A DNA stretch of 32,000 nt from Dehalococcoidia bacterium (GCA_050011565.1 JBEKIW010000001.1:234254-266253); one strand, 5' to 3'. Counted from the first letter of the stretch, positions 3,644 through 31,135 are shown. Notes: generated from the letters alone by a model not told the origin. Numbers and translations: made by a program.

Positions 3644-3735
3644 CCCTCTCCCTTGGGATGAAGGGTGGGCAGGCATCCAATGAGGATTTATTCCCATTGG
3701 GATACGGGGAAAGGGATAGGGCTGGAGAGTGGGTG
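3644..3735 (+). repeat. 92-nt structured intergenic repeat, copy 1 (second copy at 8149..8240)
   Basis: Manual alignment with 8149..8240 gives about 82/92 identical positions without gaps. Terminal CCCTCTCCC / GGGGA(A/G)AGGG arms and an inner imperfect palindrome (ATCCAATGAGG...CCCATTGGGAT) suggest a long hairpin. Confidence 0.85.
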
Positions 3736-3824: not shown

Positions 3825-3850
3825 CCAGCGTAGGGGTGAAAATAAACTTA

Positions 3851-5842
3851 ATGGAATTCAAAATAAACTCAGATTTCAGGCTCACCGGCGACCAGCCGCA
3901 AGCCGTAGACAAGCTTGTCGAAGGCCTTAACCTGGGCTACAAACAGCAGACATTGCTCGGTGTCACCGGCAGCGGCAAGACCTTCACCATGGCTAATGTA
4001 GCGGAAAGAGTCCAGAAGCCCACACTGGTCATCTGCCACAATAAGACTTTAGCCGCCCAGCTAGCCACCGAATTTAAAGAATACTTCCCCGACAACGCCG
4101 TGGAGTATTTCGTCAGCTACTATGATTATTACCAGCCGGAAGCCTATCTTCCCAGCACCGACACCTACATCGAGAAAGAAATAGATATAAACGAGGAAAT
4201 TGATAAGATGCGCCATGCCGCCACCAGGTCTTTGCTTGAACGCCGGGATGTGCTAATCGTAGCTTCGGTATCCTGCATTTACAGCCTGGGCGAGCCTGAG
4301 GAATACCGCAGCTTCGTAGCTACTATTAAGAGGGGCGAAAAATTAAATCGCGGTAAGTTGCTCCGCCGGCTGGTGGACATGCAATATGAAAGAAACGACT
4401 TCGATTTCACCCGCGGCCGGTTTCGCATCCGCGGCGACACGCTGGAAATACAGCCGGCGTATGAGGAAATAGCAATCCGGATTGAGTTCTTTGGCGATGA
4501 GGTGGAGCGCATCGTTGACGTCGACCCGCTTACCGGCGAGCTGCTGACCGAGCGTGATACGGTGGACATTTACCCTGCCAAGCACTTCGTCACTTCACAT
4601 GACAAGCTTTTGCTGGCTGTCGAGGATATCAAGGTTGAGCTGGAACAGAGGCTGCGGGAGCTTAAAGACCAGGGCAAGCTGGTCGAAGCTGCCAGGCTCG
4701 AGGCGCGAACCAACTACGACCTTGAGATGCTCCGCGAGGTAGGCTACTGCCATGCCGTGGAGAACTATTCCCGCCATCTGCAGCGTCGGGCACCGGGCAG
4801 CGCTCCGTGGACGTTGCTCGACTATTTCCCCGATGACTTCCTGCTGTTTATCGATGAGTCTCACATGTCCCTGCCGCAAATTCGTGGCATGTATCATGGT
4901 GACCTCTCCCGAAAACGGACGCTGGTCGATTACGGCTTTCGCCTGCCGTCGGCGCTGGACAACCGTCCGCTTAACTTCGATGAGTTCAACCAGCGACTCA
5001 ACCAGGTCGTCTACGTCTCGGCTACCCCGAGCGAGTATGAATTCAGCCACAGCCAGCAGGTGGCGGAGCAATTGGTCCGTCCCACCGGTCTGCTCGAGCC
5101 GACGATTGAGATCAAGCCCAGCAAAGGGCAAATCGACGACCTGATTTACCAGATTAAGACCAGGGTGGACAAAGGTGAGCGCTGCCTGGTGACCACGCTG
5201 ACCAAGCGCATGGCTGAGCAGTTGGACGATTACCTGAAAGAGATGGAAATCAGGACGCATTATCTGCACTCCGAGATTGACACGCTGGAGCGGGTTGAGA
5301 TTCTGCGCGACCTCCGCCTCGGCGTTTACGATGTGGTGGTCGGCATAAACCTGCTCCGCGAGGGTTTGGACTTGCCCGAGGTGAGCCTGGTAGCCATTCT
5401 GGATGCCGACAAGGAAGGCTACTTAAGGTCGAAGCAGGCGCTCATCCAGACGATGGGACGGGCAGCCCGTCATCTTGACGGCCATGTCATCATGTATGCC
5501 GATACCGTGACCGGAGCTATGCATGAAGCCATAGAGGAGACTAAGCGCCGTCGCAATATTCAGGAAGCTTACAACAAAGAGCACGGCATAACACCACAGG
5601 GGATAAAGAAAGCGATTAAGGACATCACCGAGCGGGTCAAGGTGGTGGCTGAAGCCAGAGCCGCCTATTCGCCTACCCCCATATCCAAAGAAGAGGTCCT
5701 CCGTCTCATCAAAGACCTGGAAGCGCAGATGCGAAAAGCCGCCAAGAACCTGGAGTTCGAAAAAGCCGCCTTACTCCGCGACCGCATCATCGAGCTGCGG
5801 AAGGACGAGGAGCTGTTATCTCCGCTGACCAGGTTCAGCTAG
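3851..5842 (+). CDS. uvrB: Excinuclease ABC subunit B (UvrB)
   Basis: The ORF is open from GTG 3836, but ATG 3851 gives the canonical N-terminus [19 protein letters not shown]. Walker A GVTGSGKT, the beta-hairpin region [10 protein letters not shown], helicase motifs and a C-terminal UVR domain ([16 protein letters not shown]) are present. Confidence 0.97.
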
Positions 5843-5892
5843 CAGTTTCATCCATGCAGGACAAATAAAGAACAAAACAAAAGGAGGTATAT

Positions 5893-7698
5893 ATGGCCGG
5901 TGGTTATATGGGAAAGGTTTTATTTGTAAATCTGTCTACAGGCGCGATTGAGATAGAGGCACTTGACGAAAAAACTTGCCGCGATTTCATCGGTGGCTAT
6001 GGCTTGGGGGCAAGAATACTATACAGCCGTCAAAAGGCAAAAGTGGCCGCCTTATCCGGAGAGAATATTCTCGGATTTCTCACCGGCCCTCTCACCGGTA
6101 CCCCGGCTCCTACCGGAGCACGGTATGTCGTGGTGGGAAAATCACCTTTAACCGGCACCTGGGGGGATGCCAACTCGGGAGGTGAATTCGGCCCTTACCT
6201 TAAATTCGCCGGCTATGACGGCGTCTTTTTTACCGGCATTTCGGACCGACCGGTCTATCTCTTAATCGATAACGGCAAAGCTGAATTAAAAGACGCCGCT
6301 CACCTGTGGGGTAAAGACACCTATGAAACGGAGAGCATATTGGAGGACGAACACGGCAGTGAAAGTCGTGTCTCCTGCATCGGCCCCTCCGGCGAAAAGC
6401 TGTCGCTCATCTCATGTATTATAAACCAGCGAGGATGTGCTGCCGGACGCTCCGGTTTAGGGGCTGTCATGGGCTCCAAAAGGCTCAAGGCAGTTGTAGC
6501 CCGGGGAAACCAAACCGTCGCTTTAGCCGACAAACAGGCCGTTGACAACTTACGAAAAAAGTATATGGCAGCGTTAAACGATACAAAGTCCGGGGGGCAC
6601 TCATACCGTGAGTCGTTCCACAAGTACGGTACGGCCAGCCATGCCGCCATTTCGGCCCAAAACGGAGATTCGCCGGTTAAAAACTGGGCTGGTATCGGTG
6701 TGGTCGATTTCCCGGATGTCTCCGGGCTCGAGCCTGATGCAGTGATAGCCAACCTTGATAAACATATAGGTTGCTGGCACTGCCCCATCGCCTGCGAGGC
6801 AAGCTTGAAGGAGGGGACCGGCGAGTACAGGTACGTTGCCGGTACACGCCGGCCTGAATACGAGACACTGGCTTCCTTCGGTGCCATGTGTCTTAACAAT
6901 AACACTGAATCCATTGCCATGGCTAACTACATTTGCAATCGATATGGAATAGACACTATCTCTGCCGGTTGTACTATTGCCTTTGCCATCGAATGTTACG
7001 AGAATGGGCTCATTACCAGGAAGGATACCGGAGGTATCGAGCTTACCTGGGGCAACCACCGGGCTATCGTTAGCATGACGGAAAAACTTGCCGGGAGAGA
7101 AGGCTTTGGTGACGTTCTCGCTGACGGAGTCAAACTGGCTGCGGAGAGAATCGGCAGGGGCGCTGAGAAGTATGCGGTGCATATCGGAGGACAGGAGCTG
7201 GGGATGCACGACCCGAAGCTCATACCGCCTATGGTGGGCAACGTTGAATCGGCTTCGGCACGATATCAGATGGACGCCACCCCCGGCCGTCACACGCAGG
7301 GCTTCGGCCCCAGTAGTTTTGGGGCTCACGTTCTCAGTTCGGCCGGGCTTTGCTATTTCGGTAATATGTGGATGCAACTGAAAGACTTCATGAATGCGGT
7401 AACCGGCTGGGGCTATTCCAGGGATGAATTAAATAAAGCCGGTGACAGGATAGCCACCCTGAGGCACGCCTTCAACCTTCGGGAAGGTGTAAACCCTCTC
7501 AAATGGACGGTGCACCCCAGGATAACGGGTGAACCTCCTTTTGAGTCTGGTCCACTGGCTGGCGTAACCGCCGATATTACAGGTCAGATTTACCGGAATC
7601 TTGGTGCTTTGGACTGGGACCGCGTCACAACCAAGCCGGGCAAAAAGAAGCTGCTGTCTCTGGGCCTTAATGACGTGGCCAAAGACCTGTGGCCATAG
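5893..7698 (+). CDS. aor: Aldehyde:ferredoxin oxidoreductase family (tungstopterin/4Fe-4S) enzyme
   Basis: 601 aa with AOR-like N-terminus MAGGYMGKVLFVNLSTG. The CxxCxxxC cluster motif (CWHCPIAC) plus a distal Cys (GLCYFG) are present. RBS AAGGAGG lies 6 nt upstream. Confidence 0.9.
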   Translation: MAGGYMGKVLFVNLSTGAIEIEALDEKTCRDFIGGYGLGARILYSRQKAKVAALSGENILGFLTGPLTGTPAPTGARYVVVGKSPLTGTWGDANSGGEFGPYLKFAGYDGVFFTGISDRPVYLLIDNGKAELKDAAHLWGKDTYETESILEDEHGSESRVSCIGPSGEKLSLISCIINQRGCAAGRSGLGAVMGSKRLKAVVARGNQTVALADKQAVDNLRKKYMAALNDTKSGGHSYRESFHKYGTASHAAISAQNGDSPVKNWAGIGVVDFPDVSGLEPDAVIANLDKHIGCWHCPIACEASLKEGTGEYRYVAGTRRPEYETLASFGAMCLNNNTESIAMANYICNRYGIDTISAGCTIAFAIECYENGLITRKDTGGIELTWGNHRAIVSMTEKLAGREGFGDVLADGVKLAAERIGRGAEKYAVHIGGQELGMHDPKLIPPMVGNVESASARYQMDATPGRHTQGFGPSSFGAHVLSSAGLCYFGNMWMQLKDFMNAVTGWGYSRDELNKAGDRIATLRHAFNLREGVNPLKWTVHPRITGEPPFESGPLAGVTADITGQIYRNLGALDWDRVTTKPGKKKLLSLGLNDVAKDLWP

Positions 7699-7743
7699 AT
7701 ATTTATGCGTCGCATTAAAATAATATAGGGGGAAAGTAGAGCC

Positions 7744-8025
7744 TTGTTCAAGTGTGTTGTCGGACTGTTCGGGTTGCCGCACGGTATAACAGGCGAGCAT
7801 AAGGTGGAAGTTGAACTAAAGGATGAGGCGAGGCTGACTGATGTTATCGCAACTCTCCGGCGTGAAATCCCGAAACTGGAGGGGCCTGTTATCCGTGCCG
7901 GTGAAGATAAACTAACGGAGCATTACGCCTTTAATATAAACGGTCGTTTTTATATTGATGATAAGGAAATTCGAATCTGCAGTGGCGACAATGTAGGGCT
8001 ACTCGCCCTGGCTGCCGGAGGGTGA
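7744..8025 (+). CDS. MoaD/ThiS-family ubiquitin-like small protein with C-terminal Gly-Gly
   Basis: 93-aa ORF with a TTG start, so the start is uncertain. It ends ...LLALAAGG-stop. Its size and its position next to aor fit a beta-grasp sulfur-carrier-like protein. Confidence 0.65.
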   Translation: MFKCVVGLFGLPHGITGEHKVEVELKDEARLTDVIATLRREIPKLEGPVIRAGEDKLTEHYAFNINGRFYIDDKEIRICSGDNVGLLALAAGG

Positions 8026-8031
8026 CTTTAA

Positions 8032-8133
8032 AACCTGGAGTTCCAAAAAGCCGCCCTGCTCCGTGACCGCATCATCGAGCTTCGCCGCGACGAGGAGATT
8101 CTGTCGCCGCTGACCAGGTTCAATAGAGAATAG
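8032..8133 (+). pseudogene. Detached relic of the uvrB 3' end (UVR-domain C-terminus), frame intact
   Basis: It translates as [33 protein letters not shown]-stop, against uvr[32 protein letters not shown]-stop. About 77/93 nt are identical, and most differences are synonymous or conservative. There is no upstream coding continuation. Confidence 0.9.
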
Positions 8134-8148
8134 CCGCTCGGCTTTACT

Positions 8149-8240
8149 CCCTCTCCCGCGGGCGGAAGGGTGGGCAGGCATCCAATGAGGATTTACTCCC
8201 ATTGGGATACGGGGAGAGGGATAGGGTTGGGGTGAGGGTG
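8149..8240 (+). repeat. 92-nt structured intergenic repeat, copy 2
   Basis: Same orientation and length as 3644..3735, about 89% identical by manual alignment. It lies 16 nt after the uvrB relic stop. Confidence 0.85.
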
Positions 8241-8479
8241 GAACCTTATCATTTTGGTCGAAAAACGCTCGGTCAAAAGAACTAGCCTATTTGTCTACGG
8301 GGGAAACTGTGCGAAGGTATATGCCTTATCGGAGTAAGCAGATATGCCCAAAATTAATTTTGTTGGTGTATAATCAGATAAAGATTTAAATTGAATAAAT
8401 AAGTCAATCATATAGATTGTGGCATTTTCGACTAAAGATTATAAAGTCTAATTGAACATGCAACTTTAGGAAAAAACAT

Positions 8480-9973
8480 ATGTCAGAATGGACAAAGCCC
8501 GCTCTCGATGATATAGAGTTTGTTAAGGCCGTTAGCGCGATTCAGAAACGTGCTGAGAAACAAACGGACTCTGACAGATTAATCGATATTTATGTGACTA
8601 CAGACCTAGCCAATCGTGCTAGAACCACTAATTCACAGCTAGTTTTAGGCAGACGTGGCACAGGTAAGACGCATATGTTTCGCGTTTTGCAAGAAATGCT
8701 TGGAATGGAGGGAGAAGTTGCACTTTACATAGATTGTAGAATGTTAGGAAGTGCGATAACCGACTCAACAGGAAACCCCCAAGGGGTAGCTATTAAATAT
8801 TTTAGAACTCTTCTTAATGAGATTAGCACACGATTATTTGATATGGCTAGACGTATGGAAGCACCAATAAAGGATTCACAACAAAAAGTTTTCGGTACCG
8901 TCTGGGGTTTGCTCCTACAGATAGAACCTAAATCCACAGAGAAATATTATGAATCAACATTTAATTATAGGCAAATAACGGAATCAATGCAGACAATTAT
9001 TTCCGGTTTGGATATACGTCATCTATTCATAATATTGGATGAGTGGTCACAAATTCCAGTATCAGCACAACCCTATGTTGCAGAATATCTTAAAAGGGCA
9101 ATTATGACTATTCCAGAAATATGTATCAAATTATTGGCCTTAAGCTATCAATGCGACCTATCTAAACAAATCAGTGAAGGAGTAATAGGCATCAAACTTG
9201 GAGCAGATATCCCGGATGTCTTGGATTTTGATTCGTATTTAATATATGATGAAAAACCGATTTTTGTTTCAGAGTTCTTTTCTCAAGTTCTTTACAATCA
9301 TCTCGGTGCCGAACTAAACTGGGATCTCAAGATAACCGGTCAAGAAAAGAGCAAAAGGATAATAGATATATTCACACAGAATAAAGCTTTCACTGAATTA
9401 GTGCGTGCAGCTGAAGGGAATTGTAGAGATTTCCTATGCATATTTGGTAATGCATATTGGGAAGGTTATCGTAAGCAAGAGGATGTAAAAGCCATAAGTA
9501 TGTCACATGTTCGCGATGCCGCTGCTAGTTGGTTTGATAATGAAAAGTATGCAAACATACGAAATGACATACTCCCAAGTATGGCACTTATGTATATATT
9601 CAATAATCTTATCAAGGGATACAAATCTCGGACTTTCATGGTCGAAACCTCGAAATCTAAACATGAGATTTTGACCAGGTTACTAAATGAACGTGTTTTA
9701 CATAAATTACCAAGATTTGACTCGCATAAAGATAAACCTGGTGAAAGATATGAACTATTTACGATTGATTATGGGGCATATGTAAGGTTCATAGGAACCG
9801 TTTACGAGCCGAACCAAGGAATGGTTAAAAATGGATATCAAGCTAAAATGCATTTTGCAGATGAGGTGGTCACAGTGCAAGATGAAGAACAAGAATTCAT
9901 GGTTCCTCACGATGATAGACGTAGCGTACGACGTATTGTATTTGATCCAGATGCGATTAAGATTCCAAAATGA
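8480..9973 (+). CDS. Orphan P-loop NTPase (AAA+/ORC-Cdc6-like core) with uncharacterised C-terminal half
   Basis: 497 aa. Walker A is LGRRGTGKTH and Walker B is HLFIILDEWSQ. AEGNCRDFLCIF is a possible sensor-2-like segment. The gene is markedly AT-rich: spot counts of 60-nt lines give roughly 27-47% G+C, against about 60% in aor. Confidence 0.75.
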   Translation: MSEWTKPALDDIEFVKAVSAIQKRAEKQTDSDRLIDIYVTTDLANRARTTNSQLVLGRRGTGKTHMFRVLQEMLGMEGEVALYIDCRMLGSAITDSTGNPQGVAIKYFRTLLNEISTRLFDMARRMEAPIKDSQQKVFGTVWGLLLQIEPKSTEKYYESTFNYRQITESMQTIISGLDIRHLFIILDEWSQIPVSAQPYVAEYLKRAIMTIPEICIKLLALSYQCDLSKQISEGVIGIKLGADIPDVLDFDSYLIYDEKPIFVSEFFSQVLYNHLGAELNWDLKITGQEKSKRIIDIFTQNKAFTELVRAAEGNCRDFLCIFGNAYWEGYRKQEDVKAISMSHVRDAAASWFDNEKYANIRNDILPSMALMYIFNNLIKGYKSRTFMVETSKSKHEILTRLLNERVLHKLPRFDSHKDKPGERYELFTIDYGAYVRFIGTVYEPNQGMVKNGYQAKMHFADEVVTVQDEEQEFMVPHDDRRSVRRIVFDPDAIKIPK

Positions 9974-9998
9974 TTTTGCCACTGCTTGAAGCGAGCAA

Positions 9999-10088
9999 AA
10001 ATTAGAGTTTGAAAAAGTTACCCTTCCTCGGCAATCGCATTATTTAGCTGAACGAGACGCGGAGATTCTATTTTCGTTGAATATATTC
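9999..10088 (+). pseudogene. Second, strongly decayed AT-rich relic of the uvrB 3' end
   Basis: KLEFEKVTLPRQSHYLAERDAEILFSLNIF aligns position for position with [30 protein letters not shown]. The nucleotide alignment needs a +1/-1 indel pair in the middle. Recognisable blocks are TAGAGTTTGAAAAAG, TCGCATTAT, AGCTG and GACGCGGAGAT. Confidence 0.6.
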
Positions 10089-10136
10089 CATCAGGAGTCA
10101 TTTTTAATAAGCATTCTAACAACTATAGAACAGAAT

Positions 10137-10826
10137 TCAAAGGTTACTTAGAAACGCTTCGATTGCCCGATTCGCTTCCACTGGTTTTTCCAGGAGGCAG
10201 TGATGCGTGGCGCCCTCGATAATCACCAGTTTGGCCCCTGCGATTTGATTGACCAGATATTGAGAATACTTTAGAGGCGTCATATCGTCCTCGGTGCCGC
10301 AAATAACCAGCGTTGGAACCGCGATGTGCCTTACCTTATCCATTACATCGAACTTATCACAGCACCGAAAATCATTGAGCTGCACGGCGGCACCTACTTT
10401 AGCCATTCCATTAACTATTTTCTTCGCTACATCAGGAGCCACCCGACTATATGGAGGTTCAGCTACTTTTTTGAGCCACTGAGCCGGGGCATTGATACTA
10501 TCTTCTAGTTTCTTCAGCAAGTCAGGCCGTACCCTCAGCCGTGCACCGGTATTGATTAATATTAGTGCTTTAACATCTTCCGGATAACTCAGCGCATACA
10601 TCAGAGCTATGGCACCGCCCAGGGAATGCCCGGCAATGACAGGCGGTGAATGATCTCCTCGTCTGAAATATCCATGTAGCCACTGCGCATACTCGTCTAT
10701 GCTGGTGCATGGCTTGCCTTCAGGATGCCCCGGAAGATTGATAGCTTCAGAACCGGTGAAGTATTTTGTCTGGTAATGCCATTCCAAACTGGTGTTGCCA
10801 GCGCCGTGAATGAAGATTAACCTCAT
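10137..10826 (-). CDS. Alpha/beta-fold hydrolase
   Basis: The start is taken at MRLIFIHGAGN (ATG at 10826). The longer ORF to 10871 runs into a hairpin repeat. The nucleophile elbow GHSLGG and the C-terminal GATHHCLLEKP (catalytic His region) are present. Confidence 0.85.
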   Translation of the reverse strand: MRLIFIHGAGNTSLEWHYQTKYFTGSEAINLPGHPEGKPCTSIDEYAQWLHGYFRRGDHSPPVIAGHSLGGAIALMYALSYPEDVKALILINTGARLRVRPDLLKKLEDSINAPAQWLKKVAEPPYSRVAPDVAKKIVNGMAKVGAAVQLNDFRCCDKFDVMDKVRHIAVPTLVICGTEDDMTPLKYSQYLVNQIAGAKLVIIEGATHHCLLEKPVEANRAIEAFLSNL

Positions 10827-10833
10827 ATTTTTT

Positions 10834-11044
10834 CCCAAGAGGGGTTTCACCCCTCTTAAACTCCCCCGCAAAAGGATAGCATGGTAAAAATCCCTCTCAA
10901 TCTCCCTTTTGCTAAGGGAGAGGTTTCCCCCTCCCTCTAACTCCCTCCCGCCAGGGGAGGGAGAATAAAAGGAAACCCTTCGACAAGCTCAGGGTGAGCG
11001 GAAAAATCCCTCTCAATCTCCCTTTAGGAAAGGGAGAGGTTTTT
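10834..11044. repeat. Mosaic cluster of short hairpin repeats (BIME/REP-like)
   Basis: Order of units: an inverted copy of the 3758-3790 unit (10834-10869); AAAAATCCCTCTCAATCTCCCTTTtgctAAGGGAGAGGTTT (10886-10926); CTCCCTCCCgccaGGGGAGGGAG (10941-10963); CCTTCGACAAGCTCAGGGTGAGCGG (10977-11001); and a second AAAAATCCCTCTCAATCTCCCTTTaggAAAGGGAGAGGTTT (11002-11044). Confidence 0.9.
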
Positions 11045-11197
11045 GCAGTAGTTTCGGGCTGCTATATGACGAATAATTATACCACTTGTTAAGCGGTCCC
11101 ATAAATAAGCCCGCACGACTGGCTTATGATATAATATTCTGCTTAATAAGGCATCGCCTTTTCTGCAAAAATAATAAAAATACGGAGTGGAGCTTCT

Positions 11198-12310
11198 ATG
11201 ATTAAATCAAGATTGTGCGACCTGGTCGGGATCAAATACCCCATTATTCAGGCCGGAATGGGCCCCTTCAGCAACAACAATCTTTGTGTTGCTGCAGCGA
11301 ATGCAGGCGTCCTGGGACTGCTTTCTACAAGCGGAGTTTTTAATAAAGATACTCAGCCATGGATTTACAAGGACTTCGTTCAAACCGCGGAGGCTAACTA
11401 CGATGACGATATGGCGACAGTCCTGGAAAAGGTGCTTAAACGGACATACAGGCTGGTCAAAGATAAAGGCGGTATTTTCGGCATCAACGTGATGGTTTCA
11501 GCGGAAGTTCTCCCGAATTCGCAGGTCATGGTTGACACGGCCATCAGGGTCCGCGAAGAGAACCCTGATATGAAAAAGCATTTCAAAGTGATCTTTACAT
11601 CCGCCGGCGACCCTCTTGGCTGGAAAGACAAGATAAAGGGAGCAGGATTTACATGGATGCACGTCGTTCCGTCTGTTAAGGGAGCTTTGCGCTGTAAGAA
11701 AGCTGGCGTCGACGTAATAGTAGCCTCCGGCCATGAAGGCGGTTTCCATACCTCGTGGGAACCGGTGCACTCGATGATTTTGCTTCCGGCTGTGGTGGAG
11801 ACGGTGTCCGACAATGAGACTCTGGTTGCCGGCGCCGGCGGGTTCTGCGATGGCAAGACACTGGCGGCGGCACTGGTTATGGGCGCAGACGGTGTGCAGA
11901 TGGGGACGCGCTTTCTGGCAACACAGGAGAGTGATTTTCATCAGATCTGGAAGGAGGGGGTTGTTGAATCAGGCGACAGGGCAACCCTTGTGGCGCGCGG
12001 CTTTGTGGGACCTGCCCGGTGGTTGAAAACACCCCGCAGCCAGGAACATGCCAAAAATACTCTACAAAAATCACCCGGCGTTTTCCTCGGCACTCCCGAT
12101 GATTATGCGACGATCGATATGTCTTTGATTGAGTTTGAAATAGAATCAATAAAAGCCGCCTTCGAAGGAAATAAGGAAAAGGCGCTCCTGGCTGCCGGTG
12201 AAGCGGCTCAGCGGATTAAAGACATGCCAAAAGTTAATGACATGGTGCAGGAAATCGTCAGGGAAGCGGAAGCCATTCTGAGGGACATTCCGAAGAAGCT
12301 TCTGGCATAA
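11198..12310 (+). CDS. Nitronate monooxygenase / 2-nitropropane dioxygenase family FMN oxidoreductase (FabK-like)
   Basis: 370 aa. It has the N-terminal IKYPIIQAGMGPFS motif, and the GADGVQMGTRFLATQES motif typical of NMO/enoyl-ACP-reductase-II TIM-barrel flavoenzymes. Confidence 0.85.
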   Translation: MIKSRLCDLVGIKYPIIQAGMGPFSNNNLCVAAANAGVLGLLSTSGVFNKDTQPWIYKDFVQTAEANYDDDMATVLEKVLKRTYRLVKDKGGIFGINVMVSAEVLPNSQVMVDTAIRVREENPDMKKHFKVIFTSAGDPLGWKDKIKGAGFTWMHVVPSVKGALRCKKAGVDVIVASGHEGGFHTSWEPVHSMILLPAVVETVSDNETLVAGAGGFCDGKTLAAALVMGADGVQMGTRFLATQESDFHQIWKEGVVESGDRATLVARGFVGPARWLKTPRSQEHAKNTLQKSPGVFLGTPDDYATIDMSLIEFEIESIKAAFEGNKEKALLAAGEAAQRIKDMPKVNDMVQEIVREAEAILRDIPKKLLA

Positions 12311-12330: not shown

Positions 12331-12436
12331 CCCTCTCCCTCAAGGGAGAGGGGGACTAATGGAGATATAAAATCCCTCTCAATCTCCCTTTACGAAAGGG
12401 AGAAGTTTCATTCTTCGACAAGCTCAGAATGAGCGG
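12331..12436. repeat. Mosaic cluster of hairpin repeats downstream of the NMO-family gene
   Basis: CCCTCTCCCtcaaGGGAGAGGG (12331-12352), TAAAATCCCTCTCAATCTCCCTTTacgAAAGGGAGAAGTTT (12368-12407) and ATTCTTCGACAAGCTCAGAATGAGCGG (12410-12436). The unit families are the same as at 10834-11044. Confidence 0.9.
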
Positions 12437-12498
12437 TAACAAAGGCGAAAAGAAAGAGCCGGCACCTGTTACAGAACAAGTGCCGGCTTTAAATGTGG

Positions 12499-13785
12499 CT
12501 AAGTTTTGAAGGTCAGGGTAAGGATGTCGGCAAGCTCGACTTTGTCACCTTCTCTCAATAAGTACCTGCCTTTTCCCTCGATACTGGACCTGTTCAGTTT
12601 GGTGCCGTTGGTGCTGTTGCGGTCCTCGATATAACATTCTCCATCTTCACAGTCGAATCGTATGTGCTGCCTGGAAATCAGGTCAGCTTTGTCCGGCTTC
12701 ACCAGGGAGCGGAAATCACTTCTGCCCAGAGATCCGGCATTGCCGGATAGGGATAATTGCTCACCGTTCGACAATATAAACTTCGGCCCAGGGCCCGTGT
12801 CGACGGGTGTGGTGGCCGGGGCACCATTTGCAGTCCGTGTAGCGGTAGCCAGATATCCGGCCCGTGCACCGGCATAGGCTGCGGTAGGCCTTCTAACAAA
12901 AAGGACGACGGCCGCCGCGGCGGCTACAGCCAGAAGTCCGAGCAACATGATATACAACATCCCGGAATTGCCCGAGCCGTCGCCGCTCAACCCGCTGGTC
13001 AAGATACTACTTGTTCCCGTATTGGCGACGTTTCCACTGCCGGCTATTGGCGTGCTGCTGGTGGTGTAGGTGGATACGTACGGAGCGACCGTCACGGTGG
13101 TGCTGGCATTCACGCTGCCATCGCTATTGGTAGCCGTAAGTGTATAGGTAGTTGTATAACCAGGACTCAGATTGTATGAGCCAGAACTTGGGACAGACCC
13201 AATCCCGGGGGATAAAGTGACCGTAGTTGCATCGTTCACCGTCCACGTCAGCACAATTCCCTGCCCACTCTGAATGTAAGATGGGTTAGCGGTAAACGAG
13301 TTGATTACCGGCGGACAGTCAATTTGCGGTTGAGGCTGCCGTTGAGGCTGCTGAACTACTACCACGTTCGAACATACGTAATAGGACCACCTATAGTTAC
13401 AAGGCCAGGAACATTCCGGACAACAGCGAAAGTATTGATTAGGCCACGGGGAGCTCCACCTATAGGGTGGTGGTGGTGTAGGTGGGGCAGGCGGCGGCGG
13501 AGGAGGAGGAGGAGGAGGTGGTGGTGGAGGTGGTGGAGGTGGTGGAGGTGGCGGTGGTGGCGGTGCCGATGGTGCAGGTGGTGGAGGAGCAGAAGAGGTA
13601 GAGGTGGCGGTGGCAGTAGCAGTAGCAGTGGCAGTGGCGGAGGAATCGGTGGTGGTGACCGTAGCGGTGGCCGTAGCGGTGGCCGTAGCGGTATCTTCGG
13701 CAGATACCGGTGTGGCCTGGAATACTGGCGCAGAGCATAGTAATAATGCTGCTGCAAGGACTAGGATTGCTTTTTTGAAGTTCAT
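12499..13785 (-). CDS. Type-I membrane protein FHA-A: signal peptide, (TA)n/poly-Pro stalk, Cys/Trp/Tyr-rich segment, Ig-like domain, TM helix, cytoplasmic C-terminal FHA domain
   Basis: 428 aa. The signal peptide is MNFKKAILVLAAALLLCSAPVFQATPVSA. There is a run of about 25 consecutive Pro. The Ig-like repeat is PVINSFTANPSYIQSGQGIVLTWTV...TTTYTLTATN. The TM segment MLYIMLLGLLAVAAAAAVVLFV is followed by RR. FHA signature: LGRSDF...ISRQHIRF...DRNSTNGTKLN. RBS AAGGAGG is present. Confidence 0.9.
   Translation of the reverse strand: MNFKKAILVLAAALLLCSAPVFQATPVSAEDTATATATATATVTTTDSSATATATATATATSTSSAPPPPAPSAPPPPPPPPPPPPPPPPPPPPPPPPPAPPTPPPPYRWSSPWPNQYFRCCPECSWPCNYRWSYYVCSNVVVVQQPQRQPQPQIDCPPVINSFTANPSYIQSGQGIVLTWTVNDATTVTLSPGIGSVPSSGSYNLSPGYTTTYTLTATNSDGSVNASTTVTVAPYVSTYTTSSTPIAGSGNVANTGTSSILTSGLSGDGSGNSGMLYIMLLGLLAVAAAAAVVLFVRRPTAAYAGARAGYLATATRTANGAPATTPVDTGPGPKFILSNGEQLSLSGNAGSLGRSDFRSLVKPDKADLISRQHIRFDCEDGECYIEDRNSTNGTKLNRSSIEGKGRYLLREGDKVELADILTLTFKT
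13489..13700 (-). repeat. Low-complexity trinucleotide/hexanucleotide repeat tract inside FHA-A (poly-Pro and Thr-Ala repeats)
   Basis: 13489-13563 is 25 consecutive NGG triplets on the + strand, which are CCN Pro codons on the - strand. 13590-13700 contains GGCAGTAGCAGTAGCAGTGGCAGTGGC and three tandem GTAGCGGTGGCC-like units encoding (TA)n. Confidence 0.9.
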
Positions 13786-13805
13786 TGTACCTCCTTATTT
13801 ATTTT

Positions 13806-13886
13806 TTATTTTTTAAACTTCAATAACAGAACAGAGCAAACCAAAAATGCTGTTGTCAGGATGAAAATTGTCTTTCTGAAATTCAT
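13806..13886 (-). CDS. 26-aa signal-peptide-like mini-ORF (possible relic of a paralogous 5' end)
   Basis: It translates as MNFRKTIFILTTAFLVCSVLLLKFKK-stop. Its RBS AAGGAG lies inside the last codons of FHA-B. The RBS and first codons (AATAAGGAGtgaccATGAATTTCAGAAAG) closely parallel the FHA-A start (AATAAGGAGgtacaATGAACTTCAAAAAA). Whether it is expressed is unknown. Confidence 0.35.
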   Translation of the reverse strand: MNFRKTIFILTTAFLVCSVLLLKFKK

Positions 13887-13888
13887 GG

Positions 13889-15490: not shown

Positions 15491-15534
15491 ATGTTCTATT
15501 AAGATTAACTATACGTCTGGCGGGAGCAGGCTGC

Positions 15535-15573
15535 TTGACTCTGGGCTGACAGGTCACTGACAGTTACCTGACA
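15535..15573 (+). promoter_or_regulatory. Four direct repeats of (C/T)TGAC(A/T) spaced exactly 11 bp apart; candidate OmpR/PhoB-type operator upstream of FHA-B
   Basis: TTGACT starts at 15535 and CTGACA at 15546, 15557 and 15568. The block lies 21 bp upstream, in the minus-strand sense, of a TATAGT -10-like hexamer (15513..15508). That hexamer has no recognisable -35. Confidence 0.5.
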
Positions 15574-15634
15574 AAATAGAAGACGCAGATAAATTATTAT
15601 TGAGGGGTTAATCTGTGATGGGTTTTCCCAGGGG

Positions 15635-17739: not shown

Positions 17740-18554
17740 ATTCTCCTGATGCTGGTCTGGGCTGTAATCATAGCCTGCCAGGATGGAAGGTTGTCGGGTT
17801 TCACCACTATTATCGATATATTATCCGGTCCGCCCGCCAGGTTAGCCTGAGCCGTCAGGTCAATGCAGGCCTGGTTGGGATTGGGAGAACCGGTAACGGT
17901 CTCCGATATCTCAGGTGAAGGCAACACGCCGCACAGACCGTCGGAACAGAGGAGGATATTGTCACCGGCGTATAGTTTTACATGAAACAGGTCCGGGACA
18001 ACGGTCCGGGCATAACCAAGTACGCGCGTTATCTCGTTCTTGCGCGGGTGGTTCCAGGCTTGTTCCGGTGTGATAGTTCCTGCATCCACGAGCTGTTGGA
18101 CTACAGAATGGTCTTTGGTGATCTGGATGGTCTCCCGTCCGTTGATTACATAGCACCTGGAATCGCCTATATGGGCGACATATAGGTCCTCACCTACAAC
18201 AAGTGCAGCGGTCAGGGTAGTACCCATGCCTTTCAACTCACCCTCGGCGGCAGAATCCAGAACCTTGCGGTTAGCCTTCTTGAAGGCAGCAGCCAAAATA
18301 GACAGGGGTGGAGTCGGGGACTGGGCGAGAAGACCGGAAATACACTCTGCATGGAGGGTCCTGGTGGCGAGGTCGCTGGCAATTTCACCGGCACTGTGCC
18401 CGCCCATACCGTCTGCCACGGCAAAGAGGCCAGCGGAGATTGTTCCCAGGTGGGTCCTGAGATCGAAGCTGGTGCATAAAACGCTATCTTCGTTGAGGTC
18501 TCTTAGCAGACCTGTGTCCCAGCTATAACCTATTTCCAATCGGTCCTCCGGCAT
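17736..18554 (-). CDS. PP2C-family Ser/Thr protein phosphatase
   Basis: 272 aa. The PP2C motifs are NEDS, FAVADGMGGHSAGEIAS, LLCSDGL and GGPDNISIIVV. Confidence 0.92.
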   Translation of the reverse strand: MPEDRLEIGYSWDTGLLRDLNEDSVLCTSFDLRTHLGTISAGLFAVADGMGGHSAGEIASDLATRTLHAECISGLLAQSPTPPLSILAAAFKKANRKVLDSAAEGELKGMGTTLTAALVVGEDLYVAHIGDSRCYVINGRETIQITKDHSVVQQLVDAGTITPEQAWNHPRKNEITRVLGYARTVVPDLFHVKLYAGDNILLCSDGLCGVLPSPEISETVTGSPNPNQACIDLTAQANLAGGPDNISIIVVKPDNLPSWQAMITAQTSIRRI

Positions 18555-18561
18555 TTCTGCT

Positions 18562-28900: not shown

Positions 28901-31135
28901 CTATGTTTGATTTTTGGGGCCCTGTTCGGCGGATTCTCTGCTATAGCCCTCTTCTTCCAGCTTCTCCATAATCCGGGCGGCTCTGGGATAGCCGATGCGT
29001 AGCCGGCGCTGCAAAAAGGAAGTAGAGACGTATTTGTGCTCTTTGGCTAGCTGTCTGGCAGACTCCATCATGGAATCATCACCGCCTTTTTCTGCCGAGA
29101 CTAGCCGGCTCATGTCCTCGAACCGGACCGGCTCCGTCTCCGGCCGGCGCTGATTGCCCCAGAAATAGACTACTCTCTCGGTCTCGGTATCCGAGACAAA
29201 GGTGCCTTGAAGTCGTTTCGGCTTGCTGGCGTCGGTGGGCATATAAAGCATATCGCCTCTGCCCAGCAGCTTCTCGGCGCCGGCAGCATCCAGTATGGTA
29301 CGCGAGTCTACCTGTGAGGTGAGGGCAAAGCTGATGCGGGTGGGGAAATTGGCTTTGATGAGGCCGGTAACTACGTCAACGGATGGCCGTTGAGTAGCCA
29401 CAATCAGATGTATGCCGGTAGCTCGCGCCAGTTGGGCCAGGCGGCACAGCGTGCGCTCCACCTCATCGAAAGCTGCCATCATCAAGTCAGCCAGCTCATC
29501 GATGACCACTACAATACAGGGCATCGCTTCGCCGGGATGCCGGCTCTTGTTATAGCCTTCGATATTGCGTGCCCCAACCTGAGCGAACTTCTGGTAGCGG
29601 TTGTCCATTTCTTGATTGAGCCAACGGAGTGCCATTACCGCTTTGTCGGCATCAACAACCACCGGAGCCACCAGGTGTGGTAATGAGTTGAAATTGACCA
29701 GCTCCACTCGCTTGGGGTCGATCATGATGAACTGGACGTCGTCAGGTGTGTTGTGGATGAGCAGGCAGCAGATAGTGGAGTTGAGGCAGGCGGTCTTGCC
29801 GCTGCCGGTGGCGCCGGCAATAAGCAGGTGCGGCATCCGGGCGAGGTCGGCAGCCACTGTTTCACCGCCGGCGCCCTTGCCCATAGCCAGAGCCAGCTTC
29901 GATTTGGCGCAGGCTTTTTGGAAGGAGGCGGACTCGATTACGCTTCTCAGGTTGACCAGGCCGAATGAAGTATTGGGGACTTCGATGCCTACTATCGATT
30001 TTCCGGGCACCGGGGCTTCGATCCTGATGCTCGATGCCGCCAGGGCTAAAGCCAGGTCGCTGGCCAGTGCGCTGATGCGGTCTACTTTAACTCTGGTTTT
30101 CGATATCTCCTCGGTGCGGACTTGAATTTCACCGTCTTTATCCCGTTCTCTAATATCCTTGTACTTGCGGTCCCAACCCGGCTCGACTCCGAACTGGGTC
30201 ACGGTGGGGCCGACATTTATCTGGACTACCTTGGCATCGACACCATAGCTGGCTAAAGCTTCCTGGATGAGCTCTGCTCGCTTTTCAATTTCGCTCTGGC
30301 TTAGCTCCACCTCTGTGGGCTTGTCCAATATAGTTAGGGGCGGCAGTTGCCAGCCTCCGGGGGTGAGTACCGGCCGATATTTTCCCGGTTCCCAGGCTTC
30401 GGGTGGAGGCGGCTCGGCAGCTTTCATCGGCGTTATGACCGGTGGTGGTGCCTCTGCCGGCGCTTCTTTGGTTTCTACTTTACCAAAATTAATTTCTGCC
30501 GGTGTCGATTCGGGTTTAACCTTGGGATGGCGCTGGCTGGCCTGACGGATGGCTTGCCAGATAAGCAAAAAGAGCTTGCCTATACCCCTGAATATGGTCT
30601 TGAATATATTGGTTATTAAGCCCCATGTCCAGCGGGGGACTATGATGAGGATACCAAGGAAAATAAGACCGGCCAGCCGTAGTGCGGCTATTGTGTAGGA
30701 ATCGGTGATAATGCTCTGGCCGATACTGCCGCCGAGAGTTGCCTCGCTGACGATGCCGCTGCCGGGGCTGAAAAAGGCTAATATGCCCCAGACAGCAAAG
30801 GCTAAAGGAATGCCGCCCAGCCACCACTTCCAGTATCTGGTGAAGAGCCAGAACCGTCCGCTGGCAATCATCCAGATTAGTATTCCCAGAAATACGGCAG
30901 TCAGGACTAATCCCAGACCGAAGAGGCCAAGCAGACCTTCCCAGGTGGCAACAATCCAGTCGGTTATATTTCCCCAGGTAGCGGCAGCCCAGTTCGATAT
31001 ATTGGGCCAGAACCAGACTATGAGTCCGACGATGACTACCGCCAGTAGCAGCCGTAAAAAAGGCCCCAGGTAATTCTTTTTTTTCTTGCCTTTGCCGCTG
31101 TCTGAAGTTTTGGTGGTCTTCTTTTTCTTAGGCAT
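28901..31135 (-). CDS. ftsK: DNA translocase FtsK/SpoIIIE
   Basis: 744 aa. It has a Lys-rich N-terminus, four or more TM helices and a Pro-rich linker. The motor domain has Walker A GATGSGKT and VVVIDELADL. The C-terminal gamma winged-helix is STSFLQRRLRIGYPRAARIMEKLEEEG. Confidence 0.95.
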   Translation of the reverse strand: MPKKKKTTKTSDSGKGKKKKNYLGPFLRLLLAVVIVGLIVWFWPNISNWAAATWGNITDWIVATWEGLLGLFGLGLVLTAVFLGILIWMIASGRFWLFTRYWKWWLGGIPLAFAVWGILAFFSPGSGIVSEATLGGSIGQSIITDSYTIAALRLAGLIFLGILIIVPRWTWGLITNIFKTIFRGIGKLFLLIWQAIRQASQRHPKVKPESTPAEINFGKVETKEAPAEAPPPVITPMKAAEPPPPEAWEPGKYRPVLTPGGWQLPPLTILDKPTEVELSQSEIEKRAELIQEALASYGVDAKVVQINVGPTVTQFGVEPGWDRKYKDIRERDKDGEIQVRTEEISKTRVKVDRISALASDLALALAASSIRIEAPVPGKSIVGIEVPNTSFGLVNLRSVIESASFQKACAKSKLALAMGKGAGGETVAADLARMPHLLIAGATGSGKTACLNSTICCLLIHNTPDDVQFIMIDPKRVELVNFNSLPHLVAPVVVDADKAVMALRWLNQEMDNRYQKFAQVGARNIEGYNKSRHPGEAMPCIVVVIDELADLMMAAFDEVERTLCRLAQLARATGIHLIVATQRPSVDVVTGLIKANFPTRISFALTSQVDSRTILDAAGAEKLLGRGDMLYMPTDASKPKRLQGTFVSDTETERVVYFWGNQRRPETEPVRFEDMSRLVSAEKGGDDSMMESARQLAKEHKYVSTSFLQRRLRIGYPRAARIMEKLEEEGYSRESAEQGPKNQT

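What the first reader, a model, noticed from the sequence alone, without database searches (positions are those of the whole stretch)
5747..10088. The uvrB 3' end occurs three times and brackets two cargo islets: a tandem insertion hotspot inside a DNA-repair gene
Seen in sequence: the last 31 codons of uvrB (5747-5842) recur at 8032-8133. About 77/93 nt are identical and the frame is intact. Six codon differences are synonymous and four are conservative, so this copy looks as if it evolved as a functional uvrB end in another lineage rather than as a local decaying duplicate. They recur again at 9999-10088 as an AT-rich copy that needs indels to align. Between copies 1 and 2 lie aor plus the MoaD-like gene. 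Between copies 2 and 3 lies an AT-rich orphan NTPase. Established knowledge: integrative elements that target the 3' end of a gene carry a surrogate 3' end in attP. This restores the gene on integration and leaves the displaced end as a direct repeat, and successive integrations give nested repeats. tRNA and tmRNA gene ends are the classical targets, and protein-gene 3' ends are used less often. Inference: two successive site-specific insertions happened at the UVR-domain-coding terminus of uvrB. Neither islet now contains an integrase, so they are remnants or were mobilised in trans.
Basis: partly seen in the sequence, partly recalled or inferred. Interest (0 to 1): 0.7.

Follow-up and report, generated by a model that had tools for sequence, protein, structure and literature searches.

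The report
Serially displaced uvrB ends at hotspot
In an uncultured peat Dehalococcoidia bacterium the last ~100 bases of the repair gene uvrB occur three times, because incoming DNA has repeatedly pushed the old gene end downstream; this marks a real gene-insertion hotspot, but probably one worked by ordinary recombination, not a dedicated integrase.

Summary
The uvrB 3' end is present three times. Copy 1 (5711-5841) is functional. Copy 2 (8030-8133) matches it at 77/91 nt with an intact frame. Copy 3 (9990-10083) is AT-rich and degenerate, but significant (nhmmer E 7e-8).

The window comes from a peat Dehalococcoidia population. An independent relative (L082) also carries three copies that bracket defence genes. 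L170 shares uvrB-AOR-ThiS-copy 2 and diverges at the end of copy 2.

In 43 related loci and the window, uvrB and ftsK are convergent neighbours. The spacer runs from 47 nt to 8.3 kb in relatives and is 23 kb in the window. So this is a real hotspot, and empty sites exist.

Displaced copies differ from functional ones almost only at third codon positions.

The integrase/attP mechanism is not supported:
- No recombinase was found in the window or in 1.9 Mb of related loci.
- The cargo is ordinary chromosomal genes.
- The left edges of the repeats vary.
- One junction (in L082) fuses an ilvD fragment to the uvrB tail at a 6-nt microhomology.
- Copy 2 is a recombination mosaic.
- Islet 2 starts about 190 nt beyond copy 2.

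The best explanation is serial 3'-end displacement: homologous recombination anchored in uvrB plus illegitimate joining, as proposed for Rhs and T6SS orphan arrays.

The parts
3836..5842 (+). uvrB, intact (668 aa, complete UVR domain).
   Evidence: Pfam UvrB_inter, UvrB, Helicase_C and UVR. 94-96% aa identity to Dehalococcoidia relatives.
5711..5841 (+). Copy 1: the functional uvrB 3' end. It is 'type K'-like (...[13 protein letters not shown]). The part repeated in copy 2 is 5747-5837.
   Evidence: nhmmer E 5e-39. Closest to the tails of L170, L081, L085 and L083.
5843..5877 (+). Short remnant of the type-K sequence that follows uvrB in relatives. The conserved hairpin of the relatives is missing.
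   Evidence: Alignment of uvrB ends plus downstream sequence. Same sequence in L170.
5878..8025 (+). Islet 1: AOR (5893-7698) and a ThiS/MoaD-like gene (7744-8025). GC 0.53. It is a chromosomal two-gene segment whose native locus in relatives lies between a nitroreductase gene and PEMT.
   Evidence: Pfam. Homology to L171/L172 runs exactly from 5880/5881 to 8025/8027. The same uvrB-AOR-ThiS arrangement occurs in L170.
8030..8133 (+). Copy 2: displaced uvrB end with intact frame, ending ...RRDEEILSPLTRFNRE* ('type N'). It is a mosaic: the left ~33 nt resemble copy 2 of L170, and the right ~45 nt resemble the functional end of L001.
8137..8243 (+). Dispersed MITE/REP-like element. 8165-8226 matches 3660-3721 at 97%.
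   Evidence: BLAST. Also present in L001 8797-8905 and L082 19671-19762.
8244..8326 (+). Native 'type N' sequence downstream of uvrB, orthologous to L001 11277-11352.
   Evidence: 84% identity over 56 nt. Alignment extends to about 8326.
8327..10125 (+). Islet 2: AT-rich block (GC 0.37) holding the single ORC/CDC6-like P-loop NTPase gene (8480-9973). Candidate defence or MGE-associated gene.
   Evidence: Composition. Pfam PF24389. 1309 homologues; those with phylum labels include Planctomycetota and Chloroflexota. The three homologue contexts examined are unrelated to uvrB and include one beside integrases and a DpnII-family gene. Weak PADLOC hit mad8.
9990..10083 (+). Copy 3: degenerate, AT-rich uvrB tail remnant with 2 indels and an in-frame stop. 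Compositionally it belongs to islet 2.
   Evidence: nhmmer E 7e-8. Alignments. GC 0.39.
10126..12310 (.). Alpha/beta hydrolase (10137-10871, minus strand) and NMO (11198-12310, plus strand). This conserved divergent gene pair sits elsewhere in related genomes. REP-like copies lie at 10886-10926 and 11002-11042.
   Evidence: Pfam. 86-92% nt identity to L183-L187 from 10126 to 12308. Absent from this interval in L001, L081 and L154.
12410..13785 (-). Right flank shared with L001, L081 and L154. Homology resumes at about 12410. FHA-domain protein gene 12499-13785.
   Evidence: BLAST of the right flanks. tblastn.
28901..31135 (-). ftsK, the ancestral convergent neighbour of uvrB in this class. It lies 23 kb away in the window.
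   Evidence: Pfam. uvrB-ftsK spacer is 47 nt to 8.3 kb in 43 related loci.

Best explanation
The stretch directly downstream of uvrB is a long-standing recombination hotspot in this Dehalococcoidia clade. uvrB was ancestrally convergent with ftsK.

Proposed mechanism: DNA from related strains enters by homologous recombination that uses the well-conserved uvrB 3' region as an anchor. Usually this just swaps the downstream island. Occasionally the far end is joined illegitimately, or a circularised fragment carrying a uvrB tail recombines by a single crossover. In that case the incoming uvrB end plus its linked cargo is placed in front of the resident end. The resident end survives as a truncated, promoterless 'orphan'. 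An orphan tail then offers extra homology where the next piece can dock, which gives tandem arrays.

In the window the result is: uvrB(copy 1) - AOR/ThiS - copy 2 - native downstream sequence - AT-rich NTPase islet - copy 3 - hydrolase/NMO.

Shown here: the three copies; the hotspot, with both empty and variously filled sites; the coding-type divergence of the orphans; a recombination breakpoint inside copy 2; a microhomology junction in L082; and no recombinase detected by the screens used.

Inferred: that RecA-type recombination plus illegitimate joining produced the arrays, and the order of events.
For: 1. The hotspot is real.
- Convergent uvrB/ftsK synteny occurs in 43 related loci and the window. 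The spacer is 47-190 nt in 7 loci, up to 8.3 kb in others, and 23 kb in the window.
- Four close relatives (window, L001, L081, L154) share both flanks but hold four different contents.

2. The pattern recurs independently. L082 has three tail copies bracketing an Mrr-STAND NTPase plus a retron-type reverse transcriptase, and an M4 peptidase.

3. The orphans were functional alleles.
- L082 functional versus distal copy: 12 differences, 11 at third codon positions (p 5e-5).
- L082 functional versus middle copy: 9 differences, 8 at third positions (p 1e-3).
- Window copy 1 versus copy 2: [5,1,8] by codon position, with 6 synonymous and 3 non-synonymous codons.
- Copy 2's variant residues (RR, EEIL, NRE*) are found in functional uvrB genes of L082, L086 and L001.

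4. Homologous recombination acted inside an orphan.
- Window copy 2 is L170-like at 3 of 3 informative sites on the left and L001-like at 11 of 13 on the right (Fisher p 0.018).
- It then continues into L001-type downstream sequence up to about 8326.
- L170 shares uvrB-AOR-ThiS-copy 2 at 89.8% over 4.3 kb and diverges about 8 nt before the stop codon of copy 2.

5. There are illegitimate joins.
- The L082 middle copy is fused to an ilvD 5' fragment at the shared hexamer CGCATC.
- AOR-ThiS was copied exactly from ribosome-binding site to stop codon out of a conserved chromosomal locus.

6. No integrase was found, and no attC-like fold.

7. The same logic has been published for Rhs tips and for T6SS effector-immunity arrays (PMC2935791, PMC5361080).
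Against: - No donor haplotype was found in which AOR-ThiS natively follows uvrB outside the window/L170 lineage. The first event therefore remains unexplained.
- The window's uvrB shows no clearly foreign 3' segment upstream of copy 1.
- Tail duplications are rare: two lineages among about 160 loci. Yet each of those lineages has three copies. This clustering could also fit a lineage-specific recombinase.
- Three orphan copies begin within about 20 nt of each other, near the LEAQMRK codons. A site-specific process would also predict that.
- Copy 3 is much more decayed than copy 2, and its origin is unresolved.
- The breakpoint test on copy 2 used a cut point chosen after looking at the data.
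- The recombinase screen was a motif regex plus a partial Pfam check. The rest of the genome was not examined.
- Whether these organisms are naturally competent is unknown.
Confidence: 0.55

Rival explanations
1. Two integrative elements inserted site-specifically into the uvrB 3' end. Each carried a surrogate uvrB end in attP. Their integrases were later lost, or acted in trans from elsewhere in the genome.
For: - Direct repeats of the gene end bracket the cargo, and uvrB stays intact.
- The uvrB-attached copy and the displaced copy are different alleles.
- Tandem arrays arose in two independent lineages.
- Three orphan copies start within about 20 nt of the LEAQMRK codons.
- The cargo genes ThiS, the NTPase and the M4 peptidase are co-oriented with uvrB and end 5-230 nt before a tail copy.
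- Dehalococcoides is known to build tandem islands at the ssrA 3' end through a site-specific mechanism (PMC3146451).
Against: - No recombinase was detected in the window or within 10 kb of uvrB in 160 related loci. None was among the top families of 52 hotspot ORFs.
- Islands at the same site in L001, L002, L081, L084 and L154 have no second tail.
- The repeats are long (90-125 nt), 85-89% identical, and differ along their whole length, with no identical core block.
- Left edges fall at profile positions 7, 15, 27, 35 and 73.
- Islet 2 starts about 190 nt after copy 2.
- The cargo of islet 1 is a housekeeping-type gene pair with exact ORF boundaries.
- The ilvD'-tail fusion in L082 is a microhomology join.
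Confidence: 0.2
2. Local event. A break or replication-fork template switch at the uvrB end copied AOR-ThiS from elsewhere in the same genome. It duplicated about 130 nt of the target as a long target-site duplication. The copies then diverged in place.
For: - AOR-ThiS is a clean intragenomic-type copy of a conserved locus.
- The L082 functional and distal copies share lineage-specific codons (CTT CTT AGA) not seen in other genomes.
- The divergence between copy 1 and copy 2 (15%) is similar to that between window copy 2 and L170 copy 2 (14%).
Against: - Differences between functional and displaced copies are almost all synonymous. That is not expected if one copy drifted neutrally.
- Copy 2's end and downstream sequence are orthologous to the functional end of L001, not to copy 1.
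- This model does not explain AT-rich foreign islets such as the NTPase block or the L082 STAND/RT block.
Confidence: 0.12
3. Cassette capture by an unknown trans-acting recombinase. The uvrB-tail copy would act like an integron attC site behind each cassette.
For: Several cargo units are ORF(s) in the uvrB orientation followed closely by a tail copy: ThiS then copy 2, the NTPase then copy 3, and the M4 peptidase then the L082 distal copy.
Against: - No IntI-like or other recombinase was found.
- The tail copies do not fold better than shuffled sequence as single-stranded DNA on either strand (z from -0.33 to +2.06).
- L082 islet A has minus-strand genes and a fused gene fragment.
Confidence: 0.05

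Closest known systems
C-terminal (3'-end) displacement arrays of Rhs genes (Jackson et al. 2009, PMC2935791), orphan arrays of CDI/Rhs and T6SS effector-immunity loci (Kirchberger et al. 2017, PMC5361080)
   Same: - A constant gene body is followed by a tandem string of promoterless, displaced 3' fragments.
- A new 3' end arrives together with linked downstream genes and pushes the old one back.
- No dedicated recombinase is involved.
- The proposed mechanisms are homologous recombination with circular intermediates, or homology-facilitated illegitimate recombination.
- Plain homologous replacement is thought to be the commoner outcome, and arrays the rare one.
   Different: - Here the gene is a housekeeping repair gene, and the displaced ends are near-identical alleles rather than divergent toxin tips.
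- The variable part is the unrelated cargo (metabolic and defence genes), not the gene's own C-terminus.
- There is no toxin/immunity logic, and no obvious selection to keep the orphans.
Homology-facilitated illegitimate recombination (de Vries & Wackernagel 2002; Prudhomme et al. 2002; Meier & Wackernagel 2003, as cited in PMC5361080; also PMC3240628)
   Same: - One-sided homology anchor (uvrB).
- Foreign DNA is joined at the other end at a short microhomology. Here it is CGCATC at the ilvD'-tail junction of L082.
   Different: - This is inferred only from sequence scars.
- Competence of these uncultured bacteria is unknown.
- The joint repeatedly falls inside the last ~130 nt of the anchor gene, which is not a described feature of HFIR.
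Integrase-mediated genomic islands at gene 3' ends, e.g. Dehalococcoides ssrA islands (PMC3146451) and SGI1 tandem integration (PMC2297512; its trmE target site is from my own knowledge)
   Same: - Direct repeats of the target gene's 3' end bracket the islands.
- The target gene is kept intact.
- Tandem arrays form.
- The ssrA case is in the same bacterial class.
   Different: - No integrase here or in related loci.
- The repeats are long and imperfect, with no fixed boundary.
- Cargo boundaries do not all coincide with the repeats.
Defence-island / accessory-gene hotspots between conserved core genes (general concept, from my own knowledge)
   Same: - Conserved flanks (uvrB, then the FHA cluster or ftsK) with different content in each genome.
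- That content includes Thoeris-like TIR plus SLATT, QueC/TGT, a retron-type RT and STAND NTPases.
   Different: - The window's own cargo is partly ordinary metabolic genes.
- The orphaned gene-end scars are not a usual feature of such hotspots.

Membership tests
Integrase-mediated island at a gene 3' end (attL/attR with surrogate end) | Direct repeats of the target gene's 3' end flank the inserted DNA, and the target gene stays intact. | tested here: met
   Three copies found; uvrB is complete.
Integrase-mediated island at a gene 3' end (attL/attR with surrogate end) | A site-specific recombinase is encoded in the island, or in homologous islands at the same site. | tested here: not met
   None in the window. 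None in 160 related loci by motif screen. None among the top 25 Pfam families of 52 hotspot ORFs. The rest of the genome was not searched.
Integrase-mediated island at a gene 3' end (attL/attR with surrogate end) | A fixed repeat boundary or identical crossover core is shared by independent insertions. | tested here: inconclusive
   Left edges fall at profile positions 7, 15, 27, 35 and 73. At least one is a secondary deletion. Three edges cluster within about 20 nt. No identical core block is present.
Integrase-mediated island at a gene 3' end (attL/attR with surrogate end) | Island ends coincide with the repeats. | tested here: not met
   The AT-rich islet 2 starts at about 8327, about 190 nt after copy 2. 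A MITE-like element and native downstream sequence lie in between.
Integrase-mediated island at a gene 3' end (attL/attR with surrogate end) | Excision as a circle with a reconstituted attP. | not testable with these tools
   Needs raw reads or PCR.
3'-end displacement arrays (Rhs / CDI / T6SS orphan type), mechanism only | A constant gene is followed by tandem, 5'-truncated copies of its own 3' end. | tested here: met
   Window, 3 copies; L082, 3 copies; L170, 2 copies.
3'-end displacement arrays (Rhs / CDI / T6SS orphan type), mechanism only | Orphans derive from once-functional ends rather than from in-situ drift. | tested here: met
   Third-codon-position excess: 11 of 12 and 8 of 9 differences in L082, and 8 of 14 in the window. 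The orphan-specific residues occur in functional genes of relatives.
3'-end displacement arrays (Rhs / CDI / T6SS orphan type), mechanism only | Polymorphic toxin tip plus immunity gene content. | tested here: not met
   The cargo is AOR/ThiS, an NTPase, and hydrolase/NMO. So this is not a member of those gene families; only the recombination logic is shared.
Homology-facilitated illegitimate recombination | A short microhomology at the non-homologous joint. | tested here: inconclusive
   Met at the L082 middle copy: the ilvD 5' fragment is joined to the uvrB tail at CGCATC (the ilvD identification is weak, E 0.0096 and 0.28). In the window, the original copy 2 joint has been removed by deletion.
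Homology-facilitated illegitimate recombination | The host takes up DNA (natural competence or an equivalent route). | not testable with these tools
   Uncultured organism.
Integron cassette array | An IntI integrase and attC sites that fold as imperfect hairpins. | tested here: not met
   No recombinase. ssDNA folding z-scores range from -0.33 to +2.06 on both strands.
Accessory/defence hotspot between core genes | Conserved flanks, with content that differs between close relatives and includes empty sites. | tested here: met
   Defence genes in L001 and L082.

The most novel reading that the evidence does not exclude
The orphaned uvrB tails are not passive scars. They would be the working recombination sites of a cassette system anchored on a housekeeping gene. 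An unrecognised trans-acting recombinase, or a dedicated use of the neighbouring RuvABC/RmuC recombination genes, would capture and shuffle promoterless ORF cassettes (metabolic and defence genes) behind uvrB, each followed by a tail copy. This would be an integron-like array without IntI or attC in Dehalococcoidia. Hints in this direction: cargo genes are co-oriented and end 5-230 nt before a tail; three orphan left edges cluster; arrays come as triples; and even two displaced copies (window versus L170) differ mainly at third codon positions.
Probability: 0.1. Interest if true: 0.7.

Novelty: new variant of a known kind. Interest (0 to 1): 0.4.

Why it matters
If the reading is right, serial '3'-end displacement' is not limited to the toxin loci (Rhs, CDI, T6SS) for which it is known. 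It would also operate at an ordinary housekeeping gene, where it builds a tandem accessory-gene array without any mobile-element machinery.

This would give a simple route for streamlined, uncultured Dehalococcoidia to accumulate and exchange defence and metabolic genes.

It also has a practical side. Orphaned gene ends are datable scars from which the order of acquisitions can be read. They also warn that direct repeats of a gene end are not proof of an integrase-driven island.

Tried and rejected
- Rfam and tRNA scans of the window: nothing found, so there is no tRNA/tmRNA target.
- IMG/VR scan with the uvrB tail peptide: only three contigs, each with a complete and distant uvrB gene (about 50% identity), and no truncated att-like tails.
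- Contexts of NTPase homologues (64-68% identity): none is near uvrB, and none is followed by a tail-like sequence. Copy 3 is therefore not an intrinsic part of that gene's cassette elsewhere.
- The idea that AOR...NMO moved as one block: rejected, because the NMO in L171 is only 25% identical.
- Search for a foreign 3' segment in the window's uvrB by sliding identity against L001, L002, L081, L154 and L170: no clear breakpoint.
- Exact-protein look-ups of UvrB, AOR and the NTPase for population variants lacking an islet: only the same arrangement was found. The Logan contig breaks at 8166-8194 and about 10953 coincide with REP/MITE repeats and are not evidence of polymorphism.
- attC-like folding of the tails: none.
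- Campbell-type integration of islet 2 into copy 2: rejected as the origin of copy 3, because copy 3 is far more decayed than the left part of copy 2.
- Literature search for uvrB as a known integration site: nothing relevant.

Full report
**1. What is there**

The left part of the window encodes a DedA/VTT protein, YebC, RuvC, RuvA, RmuC and UvrB (3836-5842). Next come:
- an aldehyde:ferredoxin oxidoreductase (AOR, 5893-7698);
- a ThiS/MoaD-like protein (7744-8025);
- an ORC/CDC6-like P-loop NTPase (8480-9973);
- an alpha/beta hydrolase on the minus strand (10137-10871);
- a nitronate monooxygenase-family gene (NMO, 11198-12310);
- a cluster of FHA-domain, Ser/Thr kinase and PP2C genes.

Much further on lie ftsK (28901-31135, minus strand) and RNase J. 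No tRNA gene and no Rfam family is present.

The closest public sequences are uncultured Dehalococcoidia. The window itself comes from a 283-kb contig of a peat metagenome (JGI 3300018018, Ga0187886_1000012). The same arrangement is found in two further independent assemblies and in short Logan contigs that cover every junction. The structure is therefore not an assembly artefact.

**2.

- Copy 1 (5747-5837) and copy 2 (8032-8122) are 77/91 identical without gaps (self-BLAST E 7e-25).
- A DNA profile of the uvrB ends of 21 related genomes hits the window three times: 5711-5841 (E 5e-39), 8030-8124 (E 1e-23) and 9990-10083 (E 7e-8).
- Copy 2 keeps the frame to its own stop at 8131-8133. Over 30 shared codons it differs from copy 1 at 6 synonymous and 3 non-synonymous codons, and it then ends ...FNRE* instead of ...FS*.
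- Copy 3 needs two indels, contains a stop codon and is 39% GC. This matches the 37% GC block that holds the NTPase, against 53-56% GC for uvrB, AOR-ThiS and copy 2.

**3. The site is a real hotspot**

In 43 related loci and the window, uvrB and ftsK are convergent neighbours. The spacer is 47-190 nt in seven genomes (empty sites), 0.4-5.8 kb in most others, 6.7 and 8.3 kb in L084 and L002, and 23 kb in the window.

Within the closest subclade, homology resumes about 90 nt beyond the FHA gene, at window position ~12410. Between uvrB and that point the four genomes carry four different contents:
- the window, 6.6 kb;
- L001, 4.8 kb: SLATT, a ThsB-type TIR, QueC, an Ogg-like glycosylase and an AlbA_2-TGT protein;
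- L081, 2.8 kb;
- L154, 2.0 kb.

**4. The repeat pattern recurs independently**

L082 (UvrB 92% identical) also has three tail copies:
- the functional one, 11072-11202;
- a 53-nt middle copy, 16089-16141;
- a 115-nt distal copy, 18982-19096, 89% identical to the functional one.

They bracket an AT-rich block holding an Mrr-STAND NTPase and a retron-type reverse transcriptase, and a second block holding an M4 peptidase.

L170 shares uvrB-AOR-ThiS-copy 2 with the window at 89.8% identity over 4.3 kb. It diverges about 8 nt before the stop of copy 2, after which an AT-rich stretch and a TPR protein gene follow.

Among about 160 loci, only these lineages have a second tail.

**5. The displaced copies are former functional ends**

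Codon-position counts:
- L082, functional versus distal copy: 12 differences, 11 at third codon positions (p 5e-5).
- L082, functional versus middle copy: 9 differences, 8 at third positions, all synonymous (p 1e-3).
- Window, copy 1 versus copy 2: [5,1,8] by codon position.

Two tail 'haplotypes' exist in the clade:
- Type K ends ...TRFK* and is followed by a conserved ~70-nt stretch with a hairpin. It is found in L154, L081, L083-L091, L002, L003 and L005.
- Type N ends ...TRFN[RK]E*. It is the functional end in L001 and the displaced copy in both the window and L082.

Copy 1 is K-like, including about 35 nt after its stop codon. Copy 2 is N-type. After an inserted MITE-like element (8137-8243), it is followed by sequence orthologous to what follows uvrB in L001: 8244-8297 matches L001 11277-11332 at 84%, and the alignment extends to about 8326.

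**6. The integrase/attP mechanism is not supported**

- None of the main ORFs scanned across the window matches a recombinase family; one 431-aa ORF matched no family.
- A motif screen for tyrosine and serine recombinases over all ORFs of 160 related loci (1.9 Mb) found none near uvrB.
- A Pfam scan of 52 ORFs from the hotspot of the nearer relatives listed none among its 25 commonest families.
- Most filled sites carry no second tail.
- The left edges of the orphan copies fall at profile positions 7 (L170), 15 (L082 distal), 27 (copy 3), 35 (window copy 2) and 73 (L082 middle).
- The edge of window copy 2 at 8030 is a secondary deletion relative to L170. Copy 2 of L170 itself lost 28 nt by slippage between two AAAGCCGCC repeats.
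- Islet 1 is not an element. Its homology to the native nitroreductase-AOR-ThiS-PEMT locus of relatives runs exactly from the ribosome-binding site (5880) to the ThiS stop codon (8025).
- The hydrolase-NMO pair is likewise a conserved chromosomal pair that sits elsewhere in relatives.
- Islet 2 starts at about 8327, some 190 nt after copy 2.
- In L082 the middle tail copy is fused directly to the first ~56 codons of an ilvD-like gene at the shared hexamer CGCATC. That is the signature of an illegitimate, microhomology-mediated join. The ilvD identification is weak but consistent in two searches.
- The tails do not fold like integron attC sites.

**7. Evidence for homologous recombination through the tails**

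At sites that distinguish L170's copy 2 from L001's functional end, window copy 2 matches L170 at 3 of 3 sites in its left 33 nt. It matches L001 at 11 of 13 sites in its right 45 nt (Fisher p 0.018; the cut point was chosen after inspection). It then continues into L001-type downstream sequence.

An orphan tail has thus served as a docking site for DNA from an L001-like relative.

L001 itself has a functional uvrB with the N-type end and no second copy. That is what deletion between two tail copies would leave behind.

**8. Most likely mechanism (confidence about 0.55)**

The uvrB 3' region is the homology anchor through which DNA from related strains recombines into a permissive convergent intergenic site. 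Double crossovers swap islands without leaving a scar.

Rarely, the far end is joined illegitimately, or a circularised fragment integrates by a single crossover. The incoming uvrB end plus its cargo is then placed upstream, and the resident end is orphaned. The orphans provide further homology, so arrays grow.

This is the logic proposed for Rhs C-terminal displacement through homologous recombination with circular intermediates (PMC2935791). It is also the logic proposed for sequential displacement in Vibrio T6SS effector-immunity arrays by homology-facilitated illegitimate recombination (PMC5361080). The difference here is that it acts on a housekeeping gene whose displaced ends are near-identical alleles.

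Steps shown by the data: the copies, the hotspot, the coding-type divergence, one mosaic orphan, one microhomology join, and no recombinase detected by the screens used. Steps inferred: the enzymology and the order of events.

**9. What remains unexplained**

- How AOR-ThiS first came to lie behind uvrB. No donor haplotype was found outside the window/L170 lineage.
- Why copy 3 is so much more decayed and AT-rich than copy 2. It most likely arrived already decayed together with the AT-rich NTPase block, but NTPase homologues elsewhere carry no such remnant.
- Why three orphan left edges cluster near the LEAQMRK codons, and why arrays come as triples in both lineages.

These points keep an integrase-in-trans model alive at about 0.2 and a cassette-capture reading at 0.05-0.1.

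**10. Verdict**

The hotspot, the tandem accretion and the displaced functional ends are all real. A site-specific integrative-element mechanism is not supported.

This is a new variant of a known kind of process, 3'-end displacement at a recombination hotspot. It is of moderate interest, mainly for genome-evolution and mobile-element specialists.

Noticed in passing
window 8137-8243 (core 8165-8226) and 3660-3721; L001 8797-8905; L082 19671-19762: A dispersed MITE/REP-like element of about 60-110 nt. The two window copies are 97% identical. One lies just after copy 2 and the other just upstream of uvrB. Logan contigs break at it.
   Followed up: partly
window 10886-10926, 11002-11042, 12369-12408; L001 11210-11272; L082, L086, L183: A second family of ~40-nt palindromic REP-like repeats (TCTCCCTTTnnnAAGGGAGA). 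One copy scores as a terminator-like hairpin. In several genomes they lie at the edges of the variable blocks.
   Followed up: partly
L001 11378-15727: At the same site, the closest GTDB relative carries a defence-type island: a SLATT membrane protein plus a ThsB-type TIR protein, and QueC plus an Ogg-like HhH glycosylase plus an AlbA_2-TGT fusion (reminiscent of 7-deazaguanine DNA-modification systems).
   Followed up: partly
L082 11226-15647: An Mrr_cat-STAND NTPase (901 aa) lies next to a 520-aa reverse transcriptase that scores E 1e-132 to 1e-127 against the PADLOC single-gene retron-type RT models (RT-Protease_XI, RT-TIR_XII). Its C-terminal ~170 residues match neither effector part.
   Followed up: no
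downstream of uvrB in L002, L003, L005, L081, L083-L091, L154 (about 70 nt after the stop codon): A conserved non-coding stretch with a ~12-bp inverted repeat (e.g. CAGTAAGGTAAT..ATTACCTTA in L084/L088). It is probably the uvrB terminator. It is lost in the window, where AOR-ThiS now follows uvrB after only 50 nt and may be co-transcribed with it.
   Followed up: no
window 5727-5770 (and copy 2 of L170, 4290-4330): The uvrB tail contains an internal direct repeat: ...GAAAAGCCGCC / ...GAAAAAGCCGCC, 27 nt apart. A slip between the two units explains the 28-nt deletion in L170's displaced copy.
   Followed up: yes
window 8480-9973: The 'orphan' NTPase belongs to a large family of single-gene ~490-aa ORC/CDC6-like ATPases (PF24389). 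It has 1309 homologues, and labelled members include Planctomycetota and Chloroflexota. In the few contexts examined they sit beside an M78 peptidase, an HTH protein, integrases or a DpnII-family gene. This suggests an uncharacterised defence or MGE-associated gene.
   Followed up: partly
window 12499-19794: A block of four FHA-domain proteins, some with long proline-rich or low-complexity linkers, together with a Ser/Thr kinase and a PP2C phosphatase. It is conserved in L001, L081 and L183, but L183 has the hydrolase/NMO pair on the opposite side. So this neighbourhood has been rearranged more than once.
   Followed up: no
window 4933-5046: Within uvrB, a ~110-nt patch is closer to L002 (84-89%) than to the otherwise closest L001 (78-79%). 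L081, L154 and L001 are nearly identical to each other there. This is a sign of intragenic recombination among these lineages.
   Followed up: partly
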